From a virus (lineage: Duplodnaviria; Heunggongvirae; Uroviricota; Caudoviricetes), in IMG/VR virus record IMGVR_UViG_3300037418_003165, positions 1 through 64,000 of that record: a stretch of DNA of 64,000 nt. One strand, 5' to 3'. Made by a program: the position numbers and the translations under genes. The stretch's first letter is position 1. Each line of letters starts with the position of its first letter. Positions 2,256 to 44,423 of the stretch are shown piece after piece. Below the pieces are notes generated by a model that was given only the letters and a program-made list of their open reading frames with translations, had not been told where the DNA came from and searched no databases.

Positions 2256-3661
2256 CCACCGTCGACGACCGACAAACCCAGACCGGCGCGGTGTGCCGCT
2301 GCTGCATCGACATCGAAGTGGGGGTCTACCTCAATGACTATCGCGTCCTGGCCGCTCTGTGCGACGGCGGGATGGCCGAAGGAGAGCCAATGGCAAGAGA
2401 ATTCACCAAACTGTGGGGCTCCCTATTCACCGATCGCCGGTTCGTCGATCTCTGCGTATTCGACAAGATCGTGTTCGTCCAGCTCATGGGCCCGAGCGAA
2501 TGCAACCGCGCCGGTGTTGTCCGGCTGTCGCTGCGGCGCTGGCTGCGGTGGCTCGCGCCGGCATCGGAAGAGCAGTTGAAAGCCGCCCTGAATCGCCTGG
2601 AGCGCGCCGGTCTGGTGTTCATCGACCCGGACACCGAGGAAGTGTTCGTGTGCCCGTACATGGAGGAAGACGAGACCTACAAACAGCCGTGGCCGATGGT
2701 CAACGCCTTCCGCGAGATGACCCGGGTCCACAGTCCCAAGATCGCCGCGATGCTGCTCGAGGAACTCGATCGATTCGAGATCGCGCGGCCCTCGGGAACG
2801 AGCGCGACTGCAGTGAAGGTGCGCGCGGCCCTCGATGCCGCGGAACGGGATGCGCTGAAGCAGCTGAACAGCCTCGTCGACGGTGCCCCACTGAATTTCG
2901 AGCTGCCGTTCCCCGATGTTTCCATCGATGTGCACTTCGGCCCGGCGGTATCCGAATCGCCCGCTGCGCCGCTCACGCCGGCACCGACGACACGCCGGGG
3001 AGAACCCTTCTCCGAACCCTTCGGTGAACCCTTCAGCGAAGGGTTCGCGCCGCGACACGCCGCCGCGGCCGATACATCCACCCTACCTGCAGAAACCCCA
3101 GGTGAACCCTTCTCGGAAGGGTTCGAAGAAGGGTTCGAGGCACCGGGGCCGCGACACGCCGATGGAGAACCCTTCGGAGAACCCTCCGGTATAGGTGCAG
3201 GTGTTCTTGTTAACTCACCTGTTCTTTCAGGCGAGATTCAAGAATTTGGGGCTCACCTCAAGCAACCAACTCACTTGCGCGTGGCGGCATTCGACACGAG
3301 CCCCCCGATGGCCAGCTGCCCCGATCACCCGGACGGCACCAACAATCCCTGCCGCCGGTGCGAAGCCAACCGCAAGGCCCACACCCGCGAACAAGCCCGC
3401 GCCCACTCAGAACGAGTCCATCGCGACGCCGACGCCAAACGCCGCGCCTGGGAGGCCTGCCCCCTCGGCTGCCTCGAACGCCGCGGCTACACACCCGAGG
3501 GCAACCTGTGCACTCACGACCCGGAAGAGCTCACCCGCCCCATGCCCGGTCGTGACCAATACCGCGAGGTCCTGGCCGCCATCAACGACCGAGTGTCGAA
3601 CAAGCGCGCCGCCGAACCCAGCCGCGGCAACCGCGCCGACCGCCGGCGACGAAGGAAGTGA
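2252..3661 (+). CDS. Putative replication initiator-like protein with an internal iteron array and AT-rich region. Carries EPF/GEPF peptide repeats.
   Basis: 470-aa frame from ATG 2252 (ATGA overlap). The DNA encoding the EPF-repeat segment contains eight or more copies of GAACCCTTC/GAAGGGTTC, followed by an AT-rich patch. Confidence 0.5.
   Translation: MTTVDDRQTQTGAVCRCCIDIEVGVYLNDYRVLAALCDGGMAEGEPMAREFTKLWGSLFTDRRFVDLCVFDKIVFVQLMGPSECNRAGVVRLSLRRWLRWLAPASEEQLKAALNRLERAGLVFIDPDTEEVFVCPYMEEDETYKQPWPMVNAFREMTRVHSPKIAAMLLEELDRFEIARPSGTSATAVKVRAALDAAERDALKQLNSLVDGAPLNFELPFPDVSIDVHFGPAVSESPAAPLTPAPTTRRGEPFSEPFGEPFSEGFAPRHAAAADTSTLPAETPGEPFSEGFEEGFEAPGPRHADGEPFGEPSGIGAGVLVNSPVLSGEIQEFGAHLKQPTHLRVAAFDTSPPMASCPDHPDGTNNPCRRCEANRKAHTREQARAHSERVHRDADAKRRAWEACPLGCLERRGYTPEGNLCTHDPEELTRPMPGRDQYREVLAAINDRVSNKRAAEPSRGNRADRRRRRK
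2995..3190 (+). repeat. Iteron-like 9-mer array (GAACCCTTC and its complement GAAGGGTTC, at least 8 copies in both orientations).
   Basis: Read directly at 3001-3050, 3100-3140 and 3160-3185. Confidence 0.7.
3185..3275 (+). promoter_or_regulatory. AT-rich low-GC patch with inverted repeat CAGGTG...CACCTG next to the iterons. Candidate DNA-unwinding element / origin.
   Basis: ggtgcaggtgttcttgttaactcacctgttctttcaggcgagattcaagaatttgg contrasts with the 65% GC surroundings. Confidence 0.45.
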
Positions 3662-3909
3662 TCGCGATGCCTCACGACCGCACCGGCGAAGAGATCGAAC
3701 TCGACGACGAGCCGACGCCCGAGCCGCCCAGGCCCCGCTGCCGGCGCTGCGGCGGCAGCGGCTGGCTCGGCGTCGACGACGAAGAGCGACCGATCCCGTG
3801 CCCGGAATGCAAAGACCACCTGCTCGGCGGCACCGCCGTCGTCCACGACTTCTCCAACCGCCTGCCCTCCCAGCGGGCCCAGCTCGCGATCGAAAGAGAC
3901 AACCTGTGA
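3658..3909 (+). CDS. Small Cys-rich (CxxC...CxxC) protein.
   Basis: GTGA overlap start. CRRCGGSGW...CPEC zinc-ribbon pattern. Confidence 0.55.
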   Translation: MIAMPHDRTGEEIELDDEPTPEPPRPRCRRCGGSGWLGVDDEERPIPCPECKDHLLGGTAVVHDFSNRLPSQRAQLAIERDNL

Positions 3910-12200: not shown

Positions 12201-12556
12201 AGAATGAAGTCCCGCAAAACGAATCGCGGGACGAGATGGCCGAGCGGGCGCTGCGTTGGTGTCGCGCAAATGACGGCGGCCGCCTCGGGGTCTGGTGGCC
12301 CTGCGGTTCCCATCCGAGGGACCCGGCTGACACGAGCCAACCGATCATGGCTGTGATGTGGGACGGCGGCGGCACTGGTGAACTCGGCGTGTTCTACGAC
12401 AAGGCCGGTGCCGATGACATGGAAACCATCTGCGACATCTTCAATTGGGCCCTCGACCAGCTTGTCCCCAGCGTGCGGGGATACTACGGCGACCGGACAT
12501 ATCTCCTCCCGAAGTCTCCGCCGGCGGCCGCCGAGGCGGAGGAGGACCGCCCGTGA
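12197..12556 (+). CDS. Hypothetical protein.
   Basis: ATGA overlap. MKNEVPQNESRDE... Confidence 0.5.
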   Translation: MKNEVPQNESRDEMAERALRWCRANDGGRLGVWWPCGSHPRDPADTSQPIMAVMWDGGGTGELGVFYDKAGADDMETICDIFNWALDQLVPSVRGYYGDRTYLLPKSPPAAAEAEEDRP

Positions 12557-13257
12557 CGAAACTCCTTCTCGAAGGTATCGCTGGCTCGACAGCCTATGGT
12601 TTGAGCCGCCCGGGCAGCGATCTCGACTACATCGGCATCTACGTCGAACCCACCCGAAACTTTCTCGGACTCCACCCGCCCTCTCGTGAACGCGCCACCC
12701 GGAAAGGCCGCGGGGGAGCAGACGGCACCTTCCACGAGATCGGCAAGTCGATGACCCTCATGCTCGCCTGCAACCCACACGCGCTCGAAATCCTCTGGCT
12801 CGACAACTACACCCACTCAACCGGTTTCGGCTGGGAACTCATCGCCCTGCGAGACTGCTTCCTGTCAGCTCAAAACGTGCGTGACCGATACTTCGAGTAC
12901 GCCCGTGGGCAACTCAAGCGACTGGTCAATTCGGGCCGCTTCGCCGGATCGCTCGAAACGCGACGAGAGAAGCACGCCCGCCACACCATGCGGATCCTCT
13001 GGCAAGGCTACGAGCTATACACCACCGGCACTCTGCCGATCCGCGTACCTGCGCCTGAGCTCCTGTTCGAGTTCGGGCAGCGGGTTGCGCACGACCCAGA
13101 TGCCCGAGCAGCCGAAACGCTGATCGCCGAATACGAAGCGAAGTTCGACGACGCACGCACAGTCCTTCCGGCTGAGCCCACCGAAGCACCACTCGAAGAC
13201 CTTCTGCAGCGCATCCGTCGCGCTCACCTCGAGATCGCGGACGGAGGCCGATCATGA
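12553..13257 (+). CDS. Pol-beta-superfamily nucleotidyltransferase.
   Basis: GSTAYGLSRPGSDLDYIG matches the GS...SDxD nucleotidyltransferase motif. GTGA overlap start. Confidence 0.6.
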   Translation: MTKLLLEGIAGSTAYGLSRPGSDLDYIGIYVEPTRNFLGLHPPSRERATRKGRGGADGTFHEIGKSMTLMLACNPHALEILWLDNYTHSTGFGWELIALRDCFLSAQNVRDRYFEYARGQLKRLVNSGRFAGSLETRREKHARHTMRILWQGYELYTTGTLPIRVPAPELLFEFGQRVAHDPDARAAETLIAEYEAKFDDARTVLPAEPTEAPLEDLLQRIRRAHLEIADGGRS

Positions 13258-13856
13258 GCGAAATCTGGTACGTGTCAGACCTGCATATCGATCATCGCTT
13301 CGTGGCCGCCGAGCGGGGATTCGATTCGACGGCGGAGCATGACCGTGTCCTGGCCGAGAACTGGGACAGCAGAGTCGCACGGGACGACATAGTGGAGGTA
13401 CTCGGCGACATCTCGGTCGGCGGCAAGCGTGCGGAACTGAATGCATTGCAGTGGGTTTCGCGGCGCCCAGGCCGCAAGCACCTGAAAGCAGGCAACCATG
13501 ACGGCTGCCACGCAATGCGCAGCGAAGCGGCCAAGTGGCAGCGGATTTACCTCGACACCGCATTCGAATCAGTCCAGCAGTACGGGATCCGCAAGATCGC
13601 TGATCAACGGGTATTGCTATGTCACTTCCCCTTCCAGGGCAGCGATTACGGCGACCACACGCCAGAGAACCGCTTCGAGGAGTGGCGGCTCCCGTGCATC
13701 GGCGAGAACGCCGACCGATGGCTGCTGCACGGGCACACCCACAGCCCGATCAAGGTCCGCGGCCGCCAACTCCACATCGGCCTCGACGCCCACGACCTGA
13801 CCCCGGTGCCGCAGACATGGGTGCAACACATGATTGCCAACGATCCACCGTTCTGA
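13254..13856 (+). CDS. Calcineurin-like metallophosphoesterase.
   Basis: DLHIDH, GNHD and GHTH metal-binding motifs. ATGA overlap. Confidence 0.7.
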   Translation: MSEIWYVSDLHIDHRFVAAERGFDSTAEHDRVLAENWDSRVARDDIVEVLGDISVGGKRAELNALQWVSRRPGRKHLKAGNHDGCHAMRSEAAKWQRIYLDTAFESVQQYGIRKIADQRVLLCHFPFQGSDYGDHTPENRFEEWRLPCIGENADRWLLHGHTHSPIKVRGRQLHIGLDAHDLTPVPQTWVQHMIANDPPF

Positions 13857-14770: not shown

Positions 14771-15310
14771 GTGGCTGAGCAAAGACGTCACATCGGCTGG
14801 TGCAGGCCGTGCCGCAAACAACTGTTCACCAGCCGTAAGGCGGCCAAACGCGCCTGCCGCCGCCGACACCCGGCAGAACAACTCACCGCCTACCGGTGCC
14901 CTGTCGATGACGGCTGGCACGGCGGGCATCTTCCGCGCAAGGTGCGAGAGGGCAGGGTGGCGCGCTCGCAGTACTACGAGCAGCGGCCACGAAGCCGACG
15001 AAAGGACGCGACCACAGTGGACGACCGGAGCTGGCAGCCGAAGGATGCGATCGACCAGATCCTCTACGAGGTGTGGTGCAGCGCAATGGATGCCGCCTAC
15101 AGCAAGGACTTTCGGAAACGAACGCACGAGTGCTCGGTGTGCCACGAACCGCACTCGATCCTCGACGAGGACAAATACCTCGAGTATCAGAGCACAGTGC
15201 TGAACTATCGACGGCAGGCACTCGATGCCCACATTGCGCAGCAAAGCCGCCCGGTAGCTGTCCAATCTGCCAAGGAATCTTCGCCAGAGCTGCGACACGA
15301 CGTGGAATAG
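14771..15310 (+). CDS. Hypothetical Cys-rich basic protein.
   Basis: Listed 179-aa ORF with a GTG start. Confidence 0.45.
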   Translation: MAEQRRHIGWCRPCRKQLFTSRKAAKRACRRRHPAEQLTAYRCPVDDGWHGGHLPRKVREGRVARSQYYEQRPRSRRKDATTVDDRSWQPKDAIDQILYEVWCSAMDAAYSKDFRKRTHECSVCHEPHSILDEDKYLEYQSTVLNYRRQALDAHIAQQSRPVAVQSAKESSPELRHDVE

Positions 15311-15468
15311 CCTTGGCGTAGGTAGGCAATATGGCTACAGTGGCGATTACTTCCGGTGCGCTAGCTGGGGCTACTTCATCAGAATGCGGATCTGACACCG
15401 AAATGCCTCGGCGACCTTTTTTCTCGGGAGTACAAACTTCAGAGTGTGGTTGATCGCCCGGTGCGATA

Positions 15469-15577
15469 GGTGAGAGTTACTTCGCCCTCAAGCGGGGAAC
15501 GCGGGTTCGAATCCCGTCGCAGCGCTGAGCGTGCTGTGTGGTCGAGCGGCCTATGACACCTACAGTCACTTTCACCA
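15469..15577 (+). ncRNA. Y-RNA-like (YrlA-type) ncRNA candidate 1, carrying a permuted tRNA-like domain.
   Basis: T-arm gcggg-ttcgaat-cccgt (15501-15517). 3' acceptor-like cgcagcg (15518-24) pairs with tgctgtg (15532-38) across a 7-nt loop. D-arm gtcg-agcggccta-tgac (15541-57). A 13-bp closing stem forms between 15469-81 and 15565-77. Lies immediately upstream of rsr. Confidence 0.55.
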
Positions 15578-15607
15578 GGGCTTGTTTTTCTCGGGCGATC
15601 GTCGACC

Positions 15608-15771
15608 CCTTCGGGGGCGGAGCCTGGTGCGCTGGCGTGGGTTACTTCCACTGTTAATGGAGAGGTTGCAGGTTCGATTCCTGTCACACCCCCCGTAAGG
15701 ATCGGGTGTGTAGCTCAATTGGCAGAGCGCTATCACCTTCGCCGAATCTTTCTCAGGCCCCGCTCCCGAAA
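15608..15771 (+). ncRNA. Y-RNA-like (YrlA-type) ncRNA candidate 2, with a permuted tRNA-Asn-like domain.
   Basis: Hairpin ttcca-ctGTTaa-tggag. T-arm gcagg-ttcgatt-cctgt (15668-84). 3' acceptor cacaccc (15685-91) pairs perfectly with gggtgtg (15704-10) across a 12-nt loop. D-arm gctc-aattggc-agagc. A 17-bp closing stem forms between 15610-26 (ttcgggggcggagcctg) and 15753-69 (caggccccgctcccgaa). Confidence 0.6.
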
Positions 15772-15812
15772 CTCTGAATGCTTGTGCCCCCGCCATCCAC
15801 AGAAGGGCAGGC

Positions 15813-17375
15813 ATGAGCAAGTTCAACGGCAGCGCCGCGCGGGCAGTCGCCGCGGGCCCGATCCAAACCGGTTTCGCCCGCGACGCGAAATCCGAACTCT
15901 TCCTCCTCGCCATCACCAACATGGTCGGGGAGAAGACCTTCTACGAGACCGCGATCGAACGCGATTCCCGATTTGCCGGGCTCGTCCGCACCATCGCCCT
16001 CAACGACCTCGACTGGCTCACTCGCTTCGGGCGCTGGCTGCGCACCGAAGTGAACATGCGCAGCGTGTCTCTCGTGCTCGCCGCAGAAGCCGCCAAAGCC
16101 ACCAACGACGCTGGACAGCACGGTGGCCGCGAACTCGTCAACGCCGTGCTCCAGCGCGCCGACGAACCGGGGGAGATGGTCGCCTACTGGCTGTCGCACT
16201 ACGGGCGCCGACTCCCGAAACCCGTCAAGCGAGGCATAGCCGACGCCGCGGCCCGGCTCTACAACGAACGCTCAACCCTCAAGTGGGACAGCGCCGGCCA
16301 CGGCATCCGCTTCGCCGACGTCATCCAGCTCACCCACCCCGACCCCCAGGCCCTCTGGCAGTCGGAGCTGTTCAAATACCTCGTCGCCCGCCGCTGGGGC
16401 AACGACGTCGAGCCCTCGCCCCGCCTCCAGATGCTGCACGCCAACGCCCACATGCGCACCCACAGCCCCGAGCACATCAAGACGCTGGCGACGAGCGGCC
16501 ACCTGGCGGAACTGCTGCGTCTGGCCGGAATGACCTGGGAAGCGATCCCCGTCCTCGTGCAGGGACCGTGGACTGCCGAACTGTGGTCGGCGGCGATCCC
16601 GACCATGGGTTACATGGCGCTCACGCGCAACCTTCGCAATTTCGACCAGGCCCACGTCAGCGACGATATCGCCGAGCAGGTCGCTGCACGCCTCAGCGAC
16701 CCCCAGCAGGTCGCACGGTCGGGGATGCTGCCAATGCAGTTCCTGTCCGCCTACCGGGCCGCGCCCTCACTGCGCTGGGCGTACCCGCTGGAAAAGGCCC
16801 TCGATCTATCGCTGGCCAACATCCCGCAGCTCCGCGGCCGCACGCTGGTGCTGGTCGACACCTCCTCCTCGATGGATGCCGGCTTCTCCAAGGACGGCAC
16901 CCTCCGGCGCTGGGACGCGGCCGCACTCTTCGGAATCGGCCTCGCCGCCCGCTGCGAGTCAGCCGACCTCGTGTCGTTCTCCAGTACTGCCCAGTACTGG
17001 GGGCAGCCCCACAACGCCCACACCCGCGAATTCACCACCACCGCAGGCGAATCCCTACTCAAAGCCCTCGACCGGTGGAAGCAGGGCGGATGGTTCCTCG
17101 GTGGCGGCACCGCCACCGCGGCCGCGGTGCGGCGCCACTTCAACGCCCACGACCGCGTAGTGATCCTCACCGACGAGCAGGCCCAGCACGACGGCCAGGA
17201 AGTCGGCCAGGCGCTCCCGAAGCAGGTGCCGCTCTACACCTGGAACCTCGCCGGCTACAAGCGCGGCCACGCCGCCGGCGGCCCGAACCGGCACACCTTC
17301 GGAGGCCTCACCGACAAGGCCTTCACGATGATCCCGCTCCTCGAGCGCGGCCGCGACTGCGATTGGCCCTTCTAA
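15813..17375 (+). CDS. rsr: Ro60/Rsr ortholog (TROVE domain plus C-terminal vWA domain).
   Basis: 520 aa. RBS GAAGGGCAGG. MIDAS motif LVLVDTSSSM. The overall TROVE-vWA architecture is typical of Ro60. Confidence 0.75.
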   Translation: MSKFNGSAARAVAAGPIQTGFARDAKSELFLLAITNMVGEKTFYETAIERDSRFAGLVRTIALNDLDWLTRFGRWLRTEVNMRSVSLVLAAEAAKATNDAGQHGGRELVNAVLQRADEPGEMVAYWLSHYGRRLPKPVKRGIADAAARLYNERSTLKWDSAGHGIRFADVIQLTHPDPQALWQSELFKYLVARRWGNDVEPSPRLQMLHANAHMRTHSPEHIKTLATSGHLAELLRLAGMTWEAIPVLVQGPWTAELWSAAIPTMGYMALTRNLRNFDQAHVSDDIAEQVAARLSDPQQVARSGMLPMQFLSAYRAAPSLRWAYPLEKALDLSLANIPQLRGRTLVLVDTSSSMDAGFSKDGTLRRWDAAALFGIGLAARCESADLVSFSSTAQYWGQPHNAHTREFTTTAGESLLKALDRWKQGGWFLGGGTATAAAVRRHFNAHDRVVILTDEQAQHDGQEVGQALPKQVPLYTWNLAGYKRGHAAGGPNRHTFGGLTDKAFTMIPLLERGRDCDWPF

Positions 17376-18553
17376 TGCCGATGACGCAGATCAGCCCCAA
17401 ATTGCTGTCGTGGGCCGTTGAGATCGACGACAACACGATCGAACAGGCGCACCAGACCGCGAGCATGCCGTTCGTGGCCCCGCACGTCGCGCTGATGCCC
17501 GACGCGCACAGTGGGCTCGGCGCCGCGGTGGGAACCGTCATCCCCACCGACGGCGCTGTGATCCCAGCCGCGGTCGGCGTGGACATCGGCTGCGGTATGG
17601 GTGCGATCGAGACTCGCTTCACCGCAGCCGATATCGACGGCCGCGACCTGGGCCAGCTGCGCGCAGCCATCGAGGCCGCGATCCCGCTGAGCCCCGGCTT
17701 CTACAACACCGCCATCACCCGCGACCACACCGCCGAACGGATCGCCGAGCTCGAAGGACTCGCCGCGCGCAACAGCGTCGACCTCACGCATTCTCCGAAG
17801 TGGCGCGAGCAGCTCGGCTCGCTTGGCGGCGGTAACCACTTCATCGAGCTGTGCTTGGACGAACGCCAGCACGTGTGGCTGTTCCTTCACTCCGGAAGCC
17901 GGGGCGTCGGCAACAAGATCGCCCAACGTCACATCAAGATCGCCCAGCAGCTGTGCAAGCGGTGGTGGATCGACCTGCCCAGCCCAGACCTCGCTTACCT
18001 CGTCGAGGGCACACACGAGTTCGCCTTCTACATCAAGGAACTCGCGTGGGCGCAGAAATTCGCCGCGCTCAACCGCGCGGACATGCTCGACCGGTTCGCC
18101 GCCGAATTCGCGCACTGGATCGGCGCCGACGACCACGGCGAAGTCGACCGGATCATCTCCCACCACAACTACACCCGCCGCGAGAAGCACATGGGCCGAG
18201 ACGTCTGGTTGACCCGGAAGGGCGCCGTCGATGCACACGCCGGCGTGCGGTCGATGATTCCAGGCAGCATGGGCACCGCCTCCTACGTCGTGGAAGGCAA
18301 GGGCTGCGTCCCGGCGCTCTGCTCGGCACCGCACGGCGCCGGCCGACGCATGTCGCGCACGGAGGCGAAAAAGCGGTTCACCGCCGACGACCTCTCCGCC
18401 CGCATGCAGGGAATCGAGTACCGGCCGGGCGAGGAATGGGTGGACGAGATCCCGGACGCGTACAAGCCGATCGACGAAGTCATGGCCGCCGCAGAGCCAC
18501 TGGTCACGGTGCTGCACCAATTGCGGCAGGTCATGAACGTCAAGGGAACGTAG
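17375..18553 (+). CDS. rtcB: RtcB RNA 3'-phosphate/5'-OH ligase.
   Basis: ATG overlaps the rsr stop. His/Cys metal-site motifs PDAHSGLG, GCGMG, GNHFIEL, HSGSRG and HHNY are typical of RtcB. Confidence 0.8.
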   Translation: MPMTQISPKLLSWAVEIDDNTIEQAHQTASMPFVAPHVALMPDAHSGLGAAVGTVIPTDGAVIPAAVGVDIGCGMGAIETRFTAADIDGRDLGQLRAAIEAAIPLSPGFYNTAITRDHTAERIAELEGLAARNSVDLTHSPKWREQLGSLGGGNHFIELCLDERQHVWLFLHSGSRGVGNKIAQRHIKIAQQLCKRWWIDLPSPDLAYLVEGTHEFAFYIKELAWAQKFAALNRADMLDRFAAEFAHWIGADDHGEVDRIISHHNYTRREKHMGRDVWLTRKGAVDAHAGVRSMIPGSMGTASYVVEGKGCVPALCSAPHGAGRRMSRTEAKKRFTADDLSARMQGIEYRPGEEWVDEIPDAYKPIDEVMAAAEPLVTVLHQLRQVMNVKGT

Positions 18554-34897: not shown

Positions 34898-35295
34898 CCC
34901 AAGTCGTCATCGGAGGAGGAGGCGGCGGGGGCGGCATCTCTGCCAGCCAGGCGGAATCGTTCTCCACCTGGATCCTCACCGGCAGCGCGATCGGCGCTGA
35001 GGGCATACAGCTGACGACCCCACCCGATACCCACATCCGCACGATGTGGGAAGTGCTCGACCAGAACGGTGACCTCTTCCACACCAGCTACAAGCCCACC
35101 GCGGCTGAAGCGGTCATCGAAGCGCGCGGAGCCCTCGAGGAACTGCGCGAGGGATGGGACCTGATCGAACGCCACGGCCACCGCTCCGGCCGTCACTATG
35201 TCCGTCTCACCGCGGTCCGCCGACGCACGATCACCACCACCACGGCCGTCGACGAAATGCAGCGAGTGTCCGACATTGACGGCAGCGCCCGATGA
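34894..35295 (+). CDS. Hypothetical protein with an N-terminal Gly8 run.
   Basis: ATGA overlap. GGA/GGC codon repeat at 34912-34935. Confidence 0.45.
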   Translation: MTQVVIGGGGGGGGISASQAESFSTWILTGSAIGAEGIQLTTPPDTHIRTMWEVLDQNGDLFHTSYKPTAAEAVIEARGALEELREGWDLIERHGHRSGRHYVRLTAVRRRTITTTTAVDEMQRVSDIDGSAR

Positions 35296-44351: not shown

Positions 44352-44423
44352 TCCCGGTTGGTGTAGTCGGCAGCACAGCGGACTTTGGTTCCGCGAGTCC
44401 AGGTTCGAGCCCTGGGCCGGGAG
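44352..44423 (+). tRNA. tRNA-Gln (anticodon TTG).
   Basis: Manual cloverleaf. Acceptor tcccggt/gccggga. D-arm gtgt-agtcggca-gcac. Anticodon arm gcgga-ctTTGgt-tccgc. Variable loop gagt. T-arm ccagg-ttcgagc-cctgg. Discriminator g. No encoded CCA. Confidence 0.7.

What the first reader, a model, noticed from the sequence alone, without database searches (positions are those of the whole stretch)
15469..15577. Second, more compact permuted tRNA-like ncRNA (Y RNA candidate 1), flanked by direct repeats ttttctcggg
The architecture is the same as candidate 2. A T-arm (15501-15517) is followed by 3' acceptor cgcagcg, which pairs (with two G:U) with tgctgtg across a 7-nt loop. A Ser/Leu-type D-arm (gtcgagcggcctatgac) follows. 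A 13-bp closing stem forms between 15469-81 and 15565-77. The motif ttttctcggg occurs at 15418-15429 and again at 15586-15597, bracketing the unit, so the two ncRNAs are spaced like a tandem duplication.
Basis: seen in the sequence. Interest (0 to 1): 0.7.

Follow-up and report, generated by a model that had tools for sequence, protein, structure and literature searches.

The report
Phage Y RNA with tRNA-like domain
The flagged stretch is a real small-RNA gene of a known kind, a tRNA-mimicking "Y RNA" (YrlA type) that sits with two sister RNAs just upstream of a phage gene for the Ro60 RNA-binding protein, so it is a new member of a described family and not a new kind of element.

Summary
The real unit is larger, 15452-15600. 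It is the middle of three tandem Y-RNA units (U0 15348-15432, U1, U2 15613-15767) directly upstream of a Ro60/Rsr gene (15813-17375) and RtcB, in a 66% GC siphovirus-like actinophage.

The "flanking direct repeats" ttttctcggg are the 3' strands of the basal, presumed Ro-binding stems of U0 and U1. They are not duplication scars.

A covariance model built on U1 finds 331 such units upstream of rsr in 167 related loci and only these three in the window. Across the 60 best, 93.8% of cells pair (74.3% when shuffled) and 25 of 33 pairs show compensatory changes.

This matches the YrlA class of Chen et al. 2014, already reported in phages, although Rfam's YrlA model scores U1 only 16 bits against a threshold of 69.

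U1's D arm is tRNA-Glu-like, not Ser/Leu-like. U1 and U2 are old paralogues, not a recent duplication.

Side finding: most relatives carry a canonical anticodon-loop-like hairpin, and public phage records annotate some as tRNAs.

The parts
15336..15341 (+). Putative -10 promoter box TACAGT for the whole Y-RNA array
   Evidence: A TANNNT box lies 14-26 nt upstream of GGTGCG in 104 of 153 first units of arrays, against 18 of 212 later units. The generic sigma-70 scan found nothing. Inferred, not shown.
15348..15432 (+). U0: short hairpin-type Y RNA with no tRNA-like domain (YrlB-like). Its 3' strand contains the first TTTTCTCGGG.
   Evidence: Model R1 hit of 32.9 bits, E = 5e-4. It has the same 5' CCGGTGCG...CTACTTC and 3' ...TCTCGGG ends as U1. 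Short units head most arrays.
15432..15443 (+). Spacer motif ACAAACTTCAGA between U0 and U1, a possible processing site
   Evidence: ACAAYTKSA follows 54 of 365 units in related loci. Its role is inferred only.
15452..15600 (+). U1: the complete YrlA-type Y RNA gene, which is the finding with corrected ends
   Evidence: Model R1 hit 15453-15599, 126 bits, E = 3.8e-23. Pair map of the window row. Rfam YrlA partial hit 15493-15562, 16 bits.
15452..15461 (+). Basal stem, 5' strand. It pairs with 15591-15600, and GGTGCGA at 15460-15466 is the presumed Ro-binding motif.
   Evidence: 10 consecutive pairs read from the sequence. Helix 1 is 96.7% paired with 6 of 9 pairs covarying, and the G:U at 15461/15591 is kept in 59 of 60 sequences. 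GGUGCGA differs by one base from the GGUCCGA contacted by Xenopus Ro60 (PMC4201824).
15469..15481 (+). Closing (upper) stem, 5' strand, ending in the conserved YUAC (UUAC 15477-15480). It pairs with 15564-15576.
   Evidence: Helices 2 and 3 are 80.6% and 90.6% paired, with 9 of 11 pairs showing double changes. The window row is mapped. A conserved YUAY before the V loop is a YrlA feature (PMC4201824).
15482..15495 (+). Hairpin UCGC-CCUCAA-GCGG (the 'V' arm of Chen et al.), a degenerate anticodon-arm-like element followed by the 5-nt linker GGAAC
   Evidence: Part of the minimum-free-energy hairpin 15480-15497. Relatives have a 5-bp stem and 7-nt loops such as CUCUCAA or CUUUCAA at the same place. 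U1 itself has a 6-nt loop.
15501..15517 (+). T arm GCGGG-UUCGAAU-CCCGU
   Evidence: 100% paired in 60 sequences, with 3 of 5 pairs covarying. It matches the YrlA and tRNA T-arm consensus.
15518..15538 (+). Closed acceptor-stem-like hairpin with 7 bp and a 7-nt loop
   Evidence: All five modelled pairs show compensatory changes and 96.3% of cells pair. Stems of 7-8 bp dominate in the clade, 71 of 127.
15541..15557 (+). D arm GUC(G)-AGCGGCCUA-(U)GAC, preceded by UG (tRNA positions 8-9); tRNA-Glu-like type
   Evidence: 94.9% paired with 2 of 3 pairs covarying. This D-arm type is found in 34 units. A de-permuted relative matches tRNA-Glu genes.
15564..15576 (+). Closing stem, 3' strand
15581..15600 (+). 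3' Ro-stem motif CTTGTTTTTCTCGGGCGATC. It is the local form of the family's CTTGATCTCGGG and contains the second TTTTCTCGGG.
15613..15767 (+). U2: a second YrlA-type Y RNA with a canonical class-I D arm and an anticodon-arm mimic, UUCCA-CUGUUAA-UGGAG, at 15645-15661
   Evidence: R1 61.6 bits. Rfam YrlA 36.1 bits. ARAGORN calls 15625-15694 tRNA-Asn. The de-permuted sequence matches phage tRNA-Asn/Lys genes end to end. Fold z-score -3.3.
15813..17375 (+). rsr: Ro60 homologue with TROVE and vWA domains
   Evidence: Pfam TROVE E = 1e-11. PDB 9L5Y/9KOP, Thermus phage Ro60, E = 6e-27. Annotated 'Ro-like RNA binding protein' in related phages.
17372..18553 (+). RtcB RNA ligase gene, overlapping the rsr stop codon
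   Evidence: Pfam RtcB 372 bits. Matches RtcB genes of mycobacteriophages.
12445..13856 (+). Upstream RNA-repair-associated genes: an RlaP nucleotidyltransferase (12445-13257) and a metallophosphoesterase (13254-13856)
   Evidence: Pfam RlaP E = 4.5e-20 and Metallophos E = 1.5e-6.

Best explanation
15452-15600 encodes a YrlA-type Y RNA, the middle one of three Y RNAs in an array at the head of a phage RNA-repair gene cluster.

Likely sequence of events:
1. The array is transcribed from a TANNNT-type promoter just upstream of U0 (inferred).
2. The transcript is cut into individual RNAs of about 85-155 nt (inferred).
3. The basal stem with GGUGCGA and the bulged 3' strand binds the phage Ro60/Rsr ring (inferred by homology).
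4. The distal domain folds like a circularly permuted tRNA. It has a T arm, a closed 7-bp acceptor stem and a D arm whose loop can dock on the T loop. The Y stem emerges where the anticodon stem or position 26/27 would be.
5. That domain tethers Rsr to a tRNA-binding or RNA-degrading partner such as host PNPase (inferred).
6. The RNP would then act with the co-encoded RtcB ligase, RlaP and phosphoesterase in RNA surveillance or repair during infection (inferred).

What is shown here is the gene's architecture, its conservation with compensatory base changes, and its fixed position next to rsr. Expression, processing, Rsr binding and the partner are inferred.
For: - Location: the unit lies in the 500-nt gap between an ORF ending at 15310 and rsr at 15813, on the same strand.
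- rsr is a Ro60 homologue and is followed by RtcB.
- Model R1, built on this unit and 6 homologues, finds 176 + 155 units in 167 rsr loci from IMG/VR and actinobacterial genomes. Nearly all lie upstream of rsr on its strand. In the window it finds only the three adjacent units.
- Structure, model-fitted alignment of 60 sequences: 93.8% of cells paired against 74.3% in shuffles and 32-52% when partners are slid. 25 of 33 pairs have double changes, and no shuffle in 500 reaches the observed values.
- Structure, structure-blind MAFFT alignment of 7 sequences: 91.6% against 79.5%, with 13 pairs showing double changes.
- The order of elements (5' motif, YUAC, V hairpin, T arm, closed acceptor, D arm) is the one published for YrlA, including in actinobacteria and mycobacteriophages (PMC4201824).
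- The Salmonella YrlA domain has a solved tRNA-like fold (bioRxiv 10.1101/312249).
- A phage Ro60 has been shown to bind two Y-like RNAs encoded upstream of its gene and to form complexes with host PNPase (PMC12135203).
- Promoter: a TANNNT box precedes first units far more often than later ones.
Against: - Rfam's YrlA model gives only 16.0 bits for U1 (E = 2) against a gathering score of 69.
- The strict published 5' motif GNCGAAN0-1G is not matched. U1 has GUGCGAUAGG.
- U1's D stem is not the nearly invariant GCUC/GAGC of YrlA RNAs.
- Single-sequence folding is not better than shuffles (z = -1.0), and the minimum-free-energy fold uses a competing pairing.
- No promoter or terminator was found by the generic scans.
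- There are no expression or binding data for this or any closely related phage.
- The 60-sequence alignment was fitted to the model, which inflates pairing.
- The related loci were collected through rsr, so adjacency to rsr is partly by construction.
Confidence: 0.87

Rival explanations
1. It is a circularly permuted pre-tRNA that is matured into a tRNA-like adaptor. RNase P would open the acceptor loop, CCA would be added, and the Y stem would be excised and the ends joined by the neighbouring RtcB ligase.
For: - The 7-bp acceptor-like stem is the length that makes M. smegmatis YrlA an RNase P substrate with CCA addition in vivo (PMC4201824).
- Wang et al. raised this possibility.
- RtcB is encoded two genes downstream.
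- Relatives carry canonical anticodon-loop-like hairpins and 4-5-nt variable loops.
- De-permuted U2 aligns end to end with real tRNA genes.
Against: - U1's own hairpin has a 6-nt loop (CCUCAA), and de-permuted U1 matches no tRNA.
- Acceptor-like stems in the clade vary from 0 to 10 uninterrupted pairs.
- The conserved Ro-binding stem would be discarded in such a pathway.
- No bacterial endonuclease for the required excision is known.
Confidence: 0.04
2. It is a cis-acting structured leader that regulates rsr-rtcB expression, for example by sensing tRNA damage or uncharged tRNA, and is not a stable trans-acting RNA.
For: - The array lies in the 5' region of the rsr-rtcB genes on the same strand, with no terminator detected between U2 and rsr.
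- The Salmonella rtcBA-rsr operon is regulated by tRNA fragments (PMC7790460, listed).
Against: - The units are modular and vary from 1 to 6 per locus with the same self-contained stem-closed architecture.
- The same architecture forms stable Rsr-bound RNAs in Salmonella, M. smegmatis and phage phiLo.
- Nothing in the unit pairs with the rsr ribosome-binding region.
Confidence: 0.05
3. It is a decayed tRNA gene, a tRNA-derived attachment-site remnant, or a chance tRNA-like fold with no function.
For: - It carries a T arm and a D arm typical of tRNAs.
- Phage genomes often carry tRNA fragments.
- The single-sequence fold is not significant.
Against: - The T arm precedes the D arm, and neither ARAGORN nor Rfam tRNA calls it.
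- Compensatory changes occur in all helices across dozens of loci.
- Its position and order relative to rsr are conserved.
Confidence: 0.02

Closest known systems
YrlA RNAs of Salmonella Typhimurium and Mycobacterium smegmatis (Chen et al. 2014, RNA 20:1715; Rfam RF02553; crystal structure PDB 6CU1)
   Same: - Encoded next to rsr.
- A basal stem carries a Ro-binding-type motif.
- YUAY precedes a 'V' hairpin, followed by a T arm, a closed acceptor-like hairpin and a D arm, that is, a circularly permuted tRNA-like domain.
- The 7-bp acceptor-like stem matches that of M. smegmatis.
- The family is already reported in mycobacteriophages.
   Different: - Scores only 16 bits on the Rfam model.
- The 5' motif is GGUGCGAUAGG, not GNCGAAN0-1G.
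- The D arm is tRNA-Glu-like, not the nearly invariant GCUC/GAGC.
- Both strands of the Ro-binding helix are conserved here, whereas only the 5' strand was recognisable in Salmonella and M. smegmatis.
- It is part of a three-unit array in a phage.
Yrl1 and Yrl2 of Thermus phage phiLo (NAR 2025, PMC12135203)
   Same: - Y-like RNAs are encoded in tandem directly upstream of a phage Ro60 gene.
- That Ro60 is the closest solved homologue of this window's Rsr (E = 6e-27).
- Binding to the phage Ro60 and complexes with host PNPase have been shown experimentally there.
   Different: The phiLo RNAs are described as stem-bulge-stem Y RNAs with a CGAA motif, and no tRNA-like domain is reported. The host phylum is different.
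Metazoan Y RNAs (hY1, hY3 and others)
   Same: - The 5' GGUGCGA(U/A)AGG resembles GGUCCGAAGG.
- The 3' UUGAUCUC-type strand forms a bulged basal helix.
- The role is that of a Ro60 partner.
   Different: Metazoan Y RNAs have no tRNA-like domain. They are made by Pol III. No Rfam Y_RNA hit was found even at E up to 10.
Circularly permuted tRNA genes of Cyanidioschyzon merolae and some archaea
   Same: The 3' half (T arm, acceptor 3' strand) precedes the 5' half (acceptor 5' strand, D arm), the acceptor stem is closed by a loop, and the RNA ends pair with each other.
   Different: Those precursors are matured into functional tRNAs through a bulge-helix-bulge splice site. Here the terminal helix is a conserved Ro-binding stem, U1 has no proper anticodon loop, and no maturation is known.
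YrlB of M. smegmatis and Salmonella, and Yrn2 of D. radiodurans
   Same: These are relevant to the neighbouring unit U0: a second, shorter hairpin-type Y RNA encoded beside the tRNA-like one.
   Different: U1 itself is not of this type.

Membership tests
YrlA-type bacterial/phage Y RNA | Encoded adjacent to a Ro60/Rsr (TROVE + vWA) gene | tested here: met
   U1 ends 212 nt upstream of rsr on the same strand. rsr is identified by Pfam TROVE and VWA and by PDB 9L5Y/9KOP.
YrlA-type bacterial/phage Y RNA | 5' Ro-binding motif GNCGAAN0-1G (resembling vertebrate GGUCCGA) near the 5' end | tested here: inconclusive
   U1 has GGUGCGAUAGG at 15460-15470. This is one base from GGUCCGA but is not a literal match to GNCGAAN0-1G. 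The clade consensus is GGUGCG(A/C)AGG. Binding cannot be tested here.
YrlA-type bacterial/phage Y RNA | Conserved YUAY preceding the V loop or hairpin | tested here: met
   UUAC at 15477-15480 is followed by the hairpin 15482-15495. (G/A)UACUUC is nearly universal in the clade.
YrlA-type bacterial/phage Y RNA | T arm, closed acceptor-like hairpin and D arm in that 5'-to-3' order | tested here: met
   15501-15517, 15518-15538 and 15541-15557. These helices are 100%, 96.3% and 94.9% paired with compensatory changes.
YrlA-type bacterial/phage Y RNA | Nearly invariant T-stem and D-stem sequences (GCGGG/CCCGC and GCUC/GAGC) | tested here: not met
   The T stem GCGGG/CCCGU conforms. The D stem is GUC(G)/(U)GAC with the loop AGCGGCCUA, a minority type found in 34 of about 340 units. 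The neighbour U2 does have GCUC/GAGC.
YrlA-type bacterial/phage Y RNA | Rfam RF02553 gathering score (69 bits) | tested here: not met
   16.0 bits, E = 2, covering model positions 23-86 only. No unit in 28 related loci reaches 69 bits, and the best is 43. The model misses the whole clade.
YrlA-type bacterial/phage Y RNA | Stable RNA bound by Rsr in vivo, with tRNA-type modifications or RNase P/CCA processing | not testable with these tools
   Needs RNA sequencing, immunoprecipitation and modification mapping.
Canonical tRNA gene | Cloverleaf in the order acceptor 5' strand, D arm, anticodon arm, variable loop, T arm, acceptor 3' strand, detectable by tRNA finders | tested here: not met
   ARAGORN finds nothing at U1. 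Rfam gives only a tRNA-Sec hit of 16.3 bits, E = 2.2. The T arm precedes the D arm.
Circularly permuted tRNA gene (maturing to a tRNA) | All tRNA elements present once re-ordered, including a 7-nt anticodon loop | tested here: not met
   U1's hairpin loop has 6 nt, and de-permuted U1 matches no tRNA in 50,697 phage records. U2 and many relatives do meet this feature.
Metazoan Y RNA (Rfam Y_RNA) | Match to the Y_RNA covariance model | tested here: not met
   No Y_RNA match at E up to 10 in 15250-15850.

The most novel reading that the evidence does not exclude
In this actinobacterial and actinophage clade the Y-RNA effector domain may be a complete circularly permuted tRNA, and not merely a tRNA elbow lacking the anticodon loop as in Salmonella YrlA.

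The supporting pattern in relatives is:
- a 5-bp stem with a 7-nt loop C32-U33-NNN-R37-A38;
- a 4-5-nt variable loop, a T arm, a 7-8-bp closed acceptor stem and a D arm;
- about 40 different anticodon-like triplets that partly match the D-arm type (Asn/Lys-like, Glu/Gly-like).

Arrays of such RNAs next to Rsr and RtcB could serve in one of two ways. They could be anticodon-loop decoys or sensors for host tRNA-cleaving defence nucleases. Or they could be matured, through RNase P, CCA addition and RtcB, into tRNA-like molecules. U1 would be a degenerate tRNA-Glu-like member of this set.
Probability: 0.15. Interest if true: 0.75.

Novelty: new member of a known kind. Interest (0 to 1): 0.35.

Why it matters
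For this window, the result replaces spurious ORFs and a false tRNA-Asn call with three Y-RNA genes. It also identifies a phage RNA-repair cluster made of RlaP, a phosphoesterase, three Y RNAs, Rsr and RtcB.

More broadly, Rfam's YrlA model misses a large actinobacterial and actinophage clade: 331 units in 167 loci, with none at threshold in the 28 loci that were scanned. In addition, curated phage records annotate at least two such modules as tRNA genes.

The function of the tRNA-like domain of YrlA RNAs is an open question. The clade found here has multi-copy arrays and anticodon-arm-like hairpins with variable triplets. That gives concrete candidates for testing whether the domain engages tRNA-specific enzymes or nucleases during phage infection.

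Tried and rejected
- BLASTN of 15300-15812 against 50,697 phage records found no match. Megablast of the first 25 kb hit only RtcB genes. The phage has no close sequenced relative, so comparison had to go through the Rsr protein.
- Rfam at gathering thresholds returned only the tRNA-Gln at 44352.
- Single-sequence folding of U1 gave z = -1.0, and the minimum-free-energy fold uses UAGGUG/CACCUA and GUU/AAC in place of the closing stem. I rejected that fold in favour of the comparative one.
- My first fixed-spacing DNA pattern found nothing because the units differ by insertions and deletions.
- The scan of viral contigs with CCGGTGCG-N(8-22)-TACTTC returned mostly single chance matches and one protein-coding repeat, L062. 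Only loci with several matches were useful.
- RNAfold on the isolated hairpin segment over-extends stems, so loop lengths came out scattered. I replaced it with a fixed-geometry test.
- De-permuted U1 matches no tRNA, so a simple origin from one recognisable tRNA cannot be shown for U1 itself.
- Generic promoter and terminator scans found nothing.
- The supplementary tables of Chen et al. 2014 and the 2020 Annual Review are not held. I could not check whether this clade or these arrays were listed there.
- The regex hits on the minus strand of the window (about 3588-3687 and 34996-35088) were not confirmed by the covariance model and were dropped.

Full report
**What is in the sequence**

The window is a 66% GC tailed phage. 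It encodes a terminase, portal, major head protein and tape measure.

Between an unassigned ORF ending at 15310 and a 520-aa ORF at 15813-17375 lies about 500 nt without a credible gene. The 520-aa protein is a Ro60/Rsr homologue:
- Pfam TROVE and VWA;
- closest solved relative the Ro60 of Thermus phage phiLo, E = 6e-27;
- 'Ro-like RNA binding protein' in Gordonia and Streptomyces phages at about 45% identity.

Its stop codon overlaps an RtcB RNA ligase gene (372 bits). An RlaP nucleotidyltransferase and a metallophosphoesterase lie about 2 kb upstream.

**Checking the observation**

- T arm at 15501-15517.
- A 7-bp closed acceptor-like hairpin at 15518-15538, with two G:U pairs and a 7-nt loop.
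- D arm at 15541-15557.
- A closing stem, whose 3' strand is 15564-15576 and not 15565-15577. It has 12 pairs in 13 positions.
- TTTTCTCGGG occurs exactly twice in the window, at 15419-15428 and 15586-15595.

On its own the fold is unremarkable. The z-score is -1.0, and the minimum-free-energy structure prefers a competing pairing. ARAGORN and Rfam at curated thresholds see nothing here. With relaxed thresholds the only relevant match is a partial hit to Rfam YrlA: 16 bits for this unit and 36 bits for the neighbouring one, against a threshold of 69.

**Real extent and neighbours**

I compared the upstream regions of eight Rsr-encoding viral contigs. This showed a repeated unit that always begins CCGGUGCG(A/C)AGG...(G/A)UACUUC and ends ...UUGAUCUCGGG.

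By that definition the window holds three units:
- U0, 15348-15432, a short hairpin type.
- U1, 15452-15600, the finding.
- U2, 15613-15767.

In U1 a 10-bp stem (15452-15461 with 15591-15600) closes the whole RNA. It carries GGUGCGA, one base away from the GGUCCGA contacted by Xenopus Ro60 (cited in PMC4201824).

**Comparative test**

I built a covariance model (R1) from U1 and six homologues with the same D-arm type (alignment A2). I used a hand-written structure of basal stem, closing stem, T arm, acceptor hairpin and D arm.

I collected 160 further rsr loci, 80 from IMG/VR and 80 from actinobacterial genomes such as Amycolatopsis, Nocardia, Micromonospora, Streptomyces and Dactylosporangium. 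Search results:
- 331 units at E <= 1e-3, almost all upstream of rsr on its strand.
- In the 64-kb window, only the three adjacent units: 126, 61.6 and 32.9 bits.

Pairing on the alignment of the 60 best hits:
- 93.8% of cells form standard pairs, against 74.3% after shuffling and 32-52% with partners slid by 1-3 columns.
- 25 of 33 pairs show changes on both sides.
- No shuffle in 500 reaches any observed measure.

That alignment is fitted to the model, so I repeated the count on the structure-blind MAFFT alignment of seven sequences. It gave 91.6% against 79.5%, 13 pairs with double changes, and slid controls of 40-49%. The structure is real and conserved.

**What it is**

The order of elements is: Ro-type motif, YUAY, a variable 'V' hairpin, T arm, closed acceptor-like stem, D arm. 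This is the published definition of YrlA-type Y RNAs. They were found next to rsr in more than 250 bacteria and phages, including actinobacteria and mycobacteriophages (PMC4201824).

The Salmonella YrlA domain has a solved tRNA-like L-shape, and the authors describe these RNAs as resembling circularly permuted tRNAs with closed acceptor stems (bioRxiv 10.1101/312249). A phage Ro60 has been shown to bind two Y-like RNAs encoded just upstream of its gene and to assemble with host PNPase (PMC12135203).

**Corrections to the interpretation**

- U1 and U2 are not a recent tandem duplication. U1 is 72-78% identical to the middle unit of the closest related contigs (L129, L130, L137) but 63% identical to U2. 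U2 is 70-73% identical to their last unit.
- The order short unit, U1-type, canonical unit recurs in several distinct loci. Arrays range from 1 to 6 units.
- The D arm is better described as tRNA-Glu-like than Ser/Leu-like. Close relatives have GUCGUCUAGCGGCCUAGGAC, a 4-nt variable loop and CUCUCAA/CUUUCAA loops. One such relative, re-ordered into tRNA order, best matches annotated tRNA-Glu genes.
- U1 itself is degenerate. Its hairpin loop has 6 nt, and the re-ordered sequence matches no tRNA.

**How it most likely works**

Shown here: architecture, conservation, covariation and genomic context.

Inferred:
1. The array is transcribed from a TANNNT -10 box, TACAGT at 15336-15341. Such a box precedes 104 of 153 first units but only 18 of 212 later units.
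2. The units are released by processing. A recurrent ACAACUUCA-like spacer may be the cleavage site. From my own recollection it fits the reported mycobacterial RNase E preference for cutting 5' of C, but I did not check this.
3. The basal stem binds the phage Rsr.
4. The tRNA-like domain recruits a partner. PNPase is the partner in Deinococcus, Salmonella and phiLo; the specific partner of the YrlA elbow is unknown.
5. With RtcB, RlaP and a phosphoesterase in the same cluster, the likely role is RNA surveillance or repair during infection, possibly against host RNA-cleaving defences.

**Membership**

Met:
- adjacency to rsr;
- YUAY;
- T arm, closed acceptor and D arm in the right order, with covariation.

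Not met:
- the Rfam gathering score;
- the nearly invariant D-stem sequence;
- a literal match to GNCGAAN0-1G.

The Rfam failure is a property of the model and not of this RNA. None of 28 related loci reaches threshold, and the best score is 43 bits. I therefore file U1 as a new member of a known kind, with a minority D-arm type.

**Side findings**

1. In 224 distinct T-arm-bearing units, a perfect 5-bp stem with a 7-nt loop ends exactly 4 or 5 nt before the T stem in 79 cases, against 0-12 at other offsets. In the 128 units with at least 4 of 5 pairs, the loop reads C (83%), U (89%), NNN, A (74%) or G, A (85%), with about 40 different central triplets. That is the signature of an anticodon arm plus a class-I variable loop, not of a class-II variable arm. 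The triplets partly track the D-arm type.
2. Acceptor-like stems are mostly 7-8 bp.
3. Re-ordered U2 aligns end to end with phage tRNA-Asn/Lys genes at 77-80%. This explains ARAGORN's false tRNA-Asn call at 15625-15694.
4. Public records make the same mistake. 'tRNA-Arg(tct)' of Gordonia phage VanLee and 'tRNA-Ser(gct)' of Streptomyces phage LuckySocke lie inside Y-RNA units upstream of their Ro-like genes, and neither reaches the Rfam tRNA threshold.

These observations fit the proposed origin of YrlA from tRNA transcripts. They also leave open a more interesting role for the anticodon-like loops.

**Verdict**

This is a real, conserved Y-RNA gene of the YrlA class in a phage Ro60/RtcB locus. 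Interest is modest for the finding itself. The clade-wide anticodon-arm mimicry and the tRNA mis-annotations are the parts worth following up.

Noticed in passing
window 15645-15661 (U2); related loci L001-L008 and L129-L288 upstream of rsr: Most tRNA-like Y-RNA units carry, right after UACUUC, a 5-bp hairpin with a 7-nt loop C-U-NNN-A/G-A placed exactly 4-5 nt before the T stem. This is an anticodon arm plus variable loop. There are about 40 different 'anticodon' triplets, with GUU, GCU, UCC and CUU the commonest, and they partly track the D-arm type. The published YrlA model calls this a variable arm and describes Salmonella YrlA as lacking an anticodon loop.
   Followed up: partly
window 15625-15694; L289 1204-1275 (Gordonia phage VanLee NC_073474 65454-65525); L290 1274-1347 (Streptomyces phage LuckySocke OR725497 10738-10811): tRNA finders and public annotations call parts of Y-RNA units tRNA genes. 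ARAGORN reports a tRNA-Asn in the window, and the two phage records annotate tRNA-Arg(tct) and tRNA-Ser(gct). All three lie inside covariance-model hits upstream of Ro-like genes and fail the Rfam tRNA threshold.
   Followed up: partly
window 15348-15432: A third, short Y-RNA-like unit (U0) with no T or D arm heads the array. It has the same 5' and 3' end motifs, and its first base lies 7 nt after a TACAGT box.
   Followed up: partly
window 15336-15341 and the equivalent position in 104 of 153 related arrays: A TANNNT -10-like box lies 14-26 nt upstream of GGTGCG of the first unit of an array and is rare before later units. This suggests one promoter per array and polycistronic transcription.
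   Followed up: partly
window 15432-15443; spacers after units in many related loci: A recurrent spacer motif ACAA(A)CTTCAGA follows units. It may be a processing site.
   Followed up: no
window 15606-15617: A CCCC-UUCG-GGGG tetraloop hairpin lies between U1 and U2. It competes with the 15-bp extended basal stem of U2 (15613-15627 with 15753-15767).
   Followed up: no
L249, L255, L257, L259, L262, L267, L268, L271, L272, L275, L276, L278, L280 (Micromonospora and relatives): A subgroup of units of about 151 nt has an extra conserved hairpin (UGGCCCGCAAGGGCCA-like) inserted between the D arm and the 3' strand of the closing stem.
   Followed up: no
Xanthomonas phages Bolivar, Usaquen, Olaya and others (hits H85-H92): An unannotated segment resembling anticodon arm, variable loop and T arm was matched in Xanthomonas and Xylella phages. 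In Bolivar and Usaquen, where the Ro-like gene position is also known, it lies about 500 bp from that gene, suggesting similar Y RNAs outside actinophages.
   Followed up: no
window 12445-13856 and 17372-18553: The Y RNA/Rsr genes sit in a cluster with RlaP, a metallophosphoesterase and RtcB, which looks like a phage-borne RNA-repair module. The ORF at 14771-15310 between them has no Pfam or PHROG match.
   Followed up: partly
Rfam RF02553 versus L001-L008, L129, L130, L137, L183, L209-L277 (sample): The curated YrlA model detects none of the actinobacterial or actinophage units at its gathering score; the best is 43 bits against 69. Standard annotation therefore misses this whole clade.
   Followed up: yes
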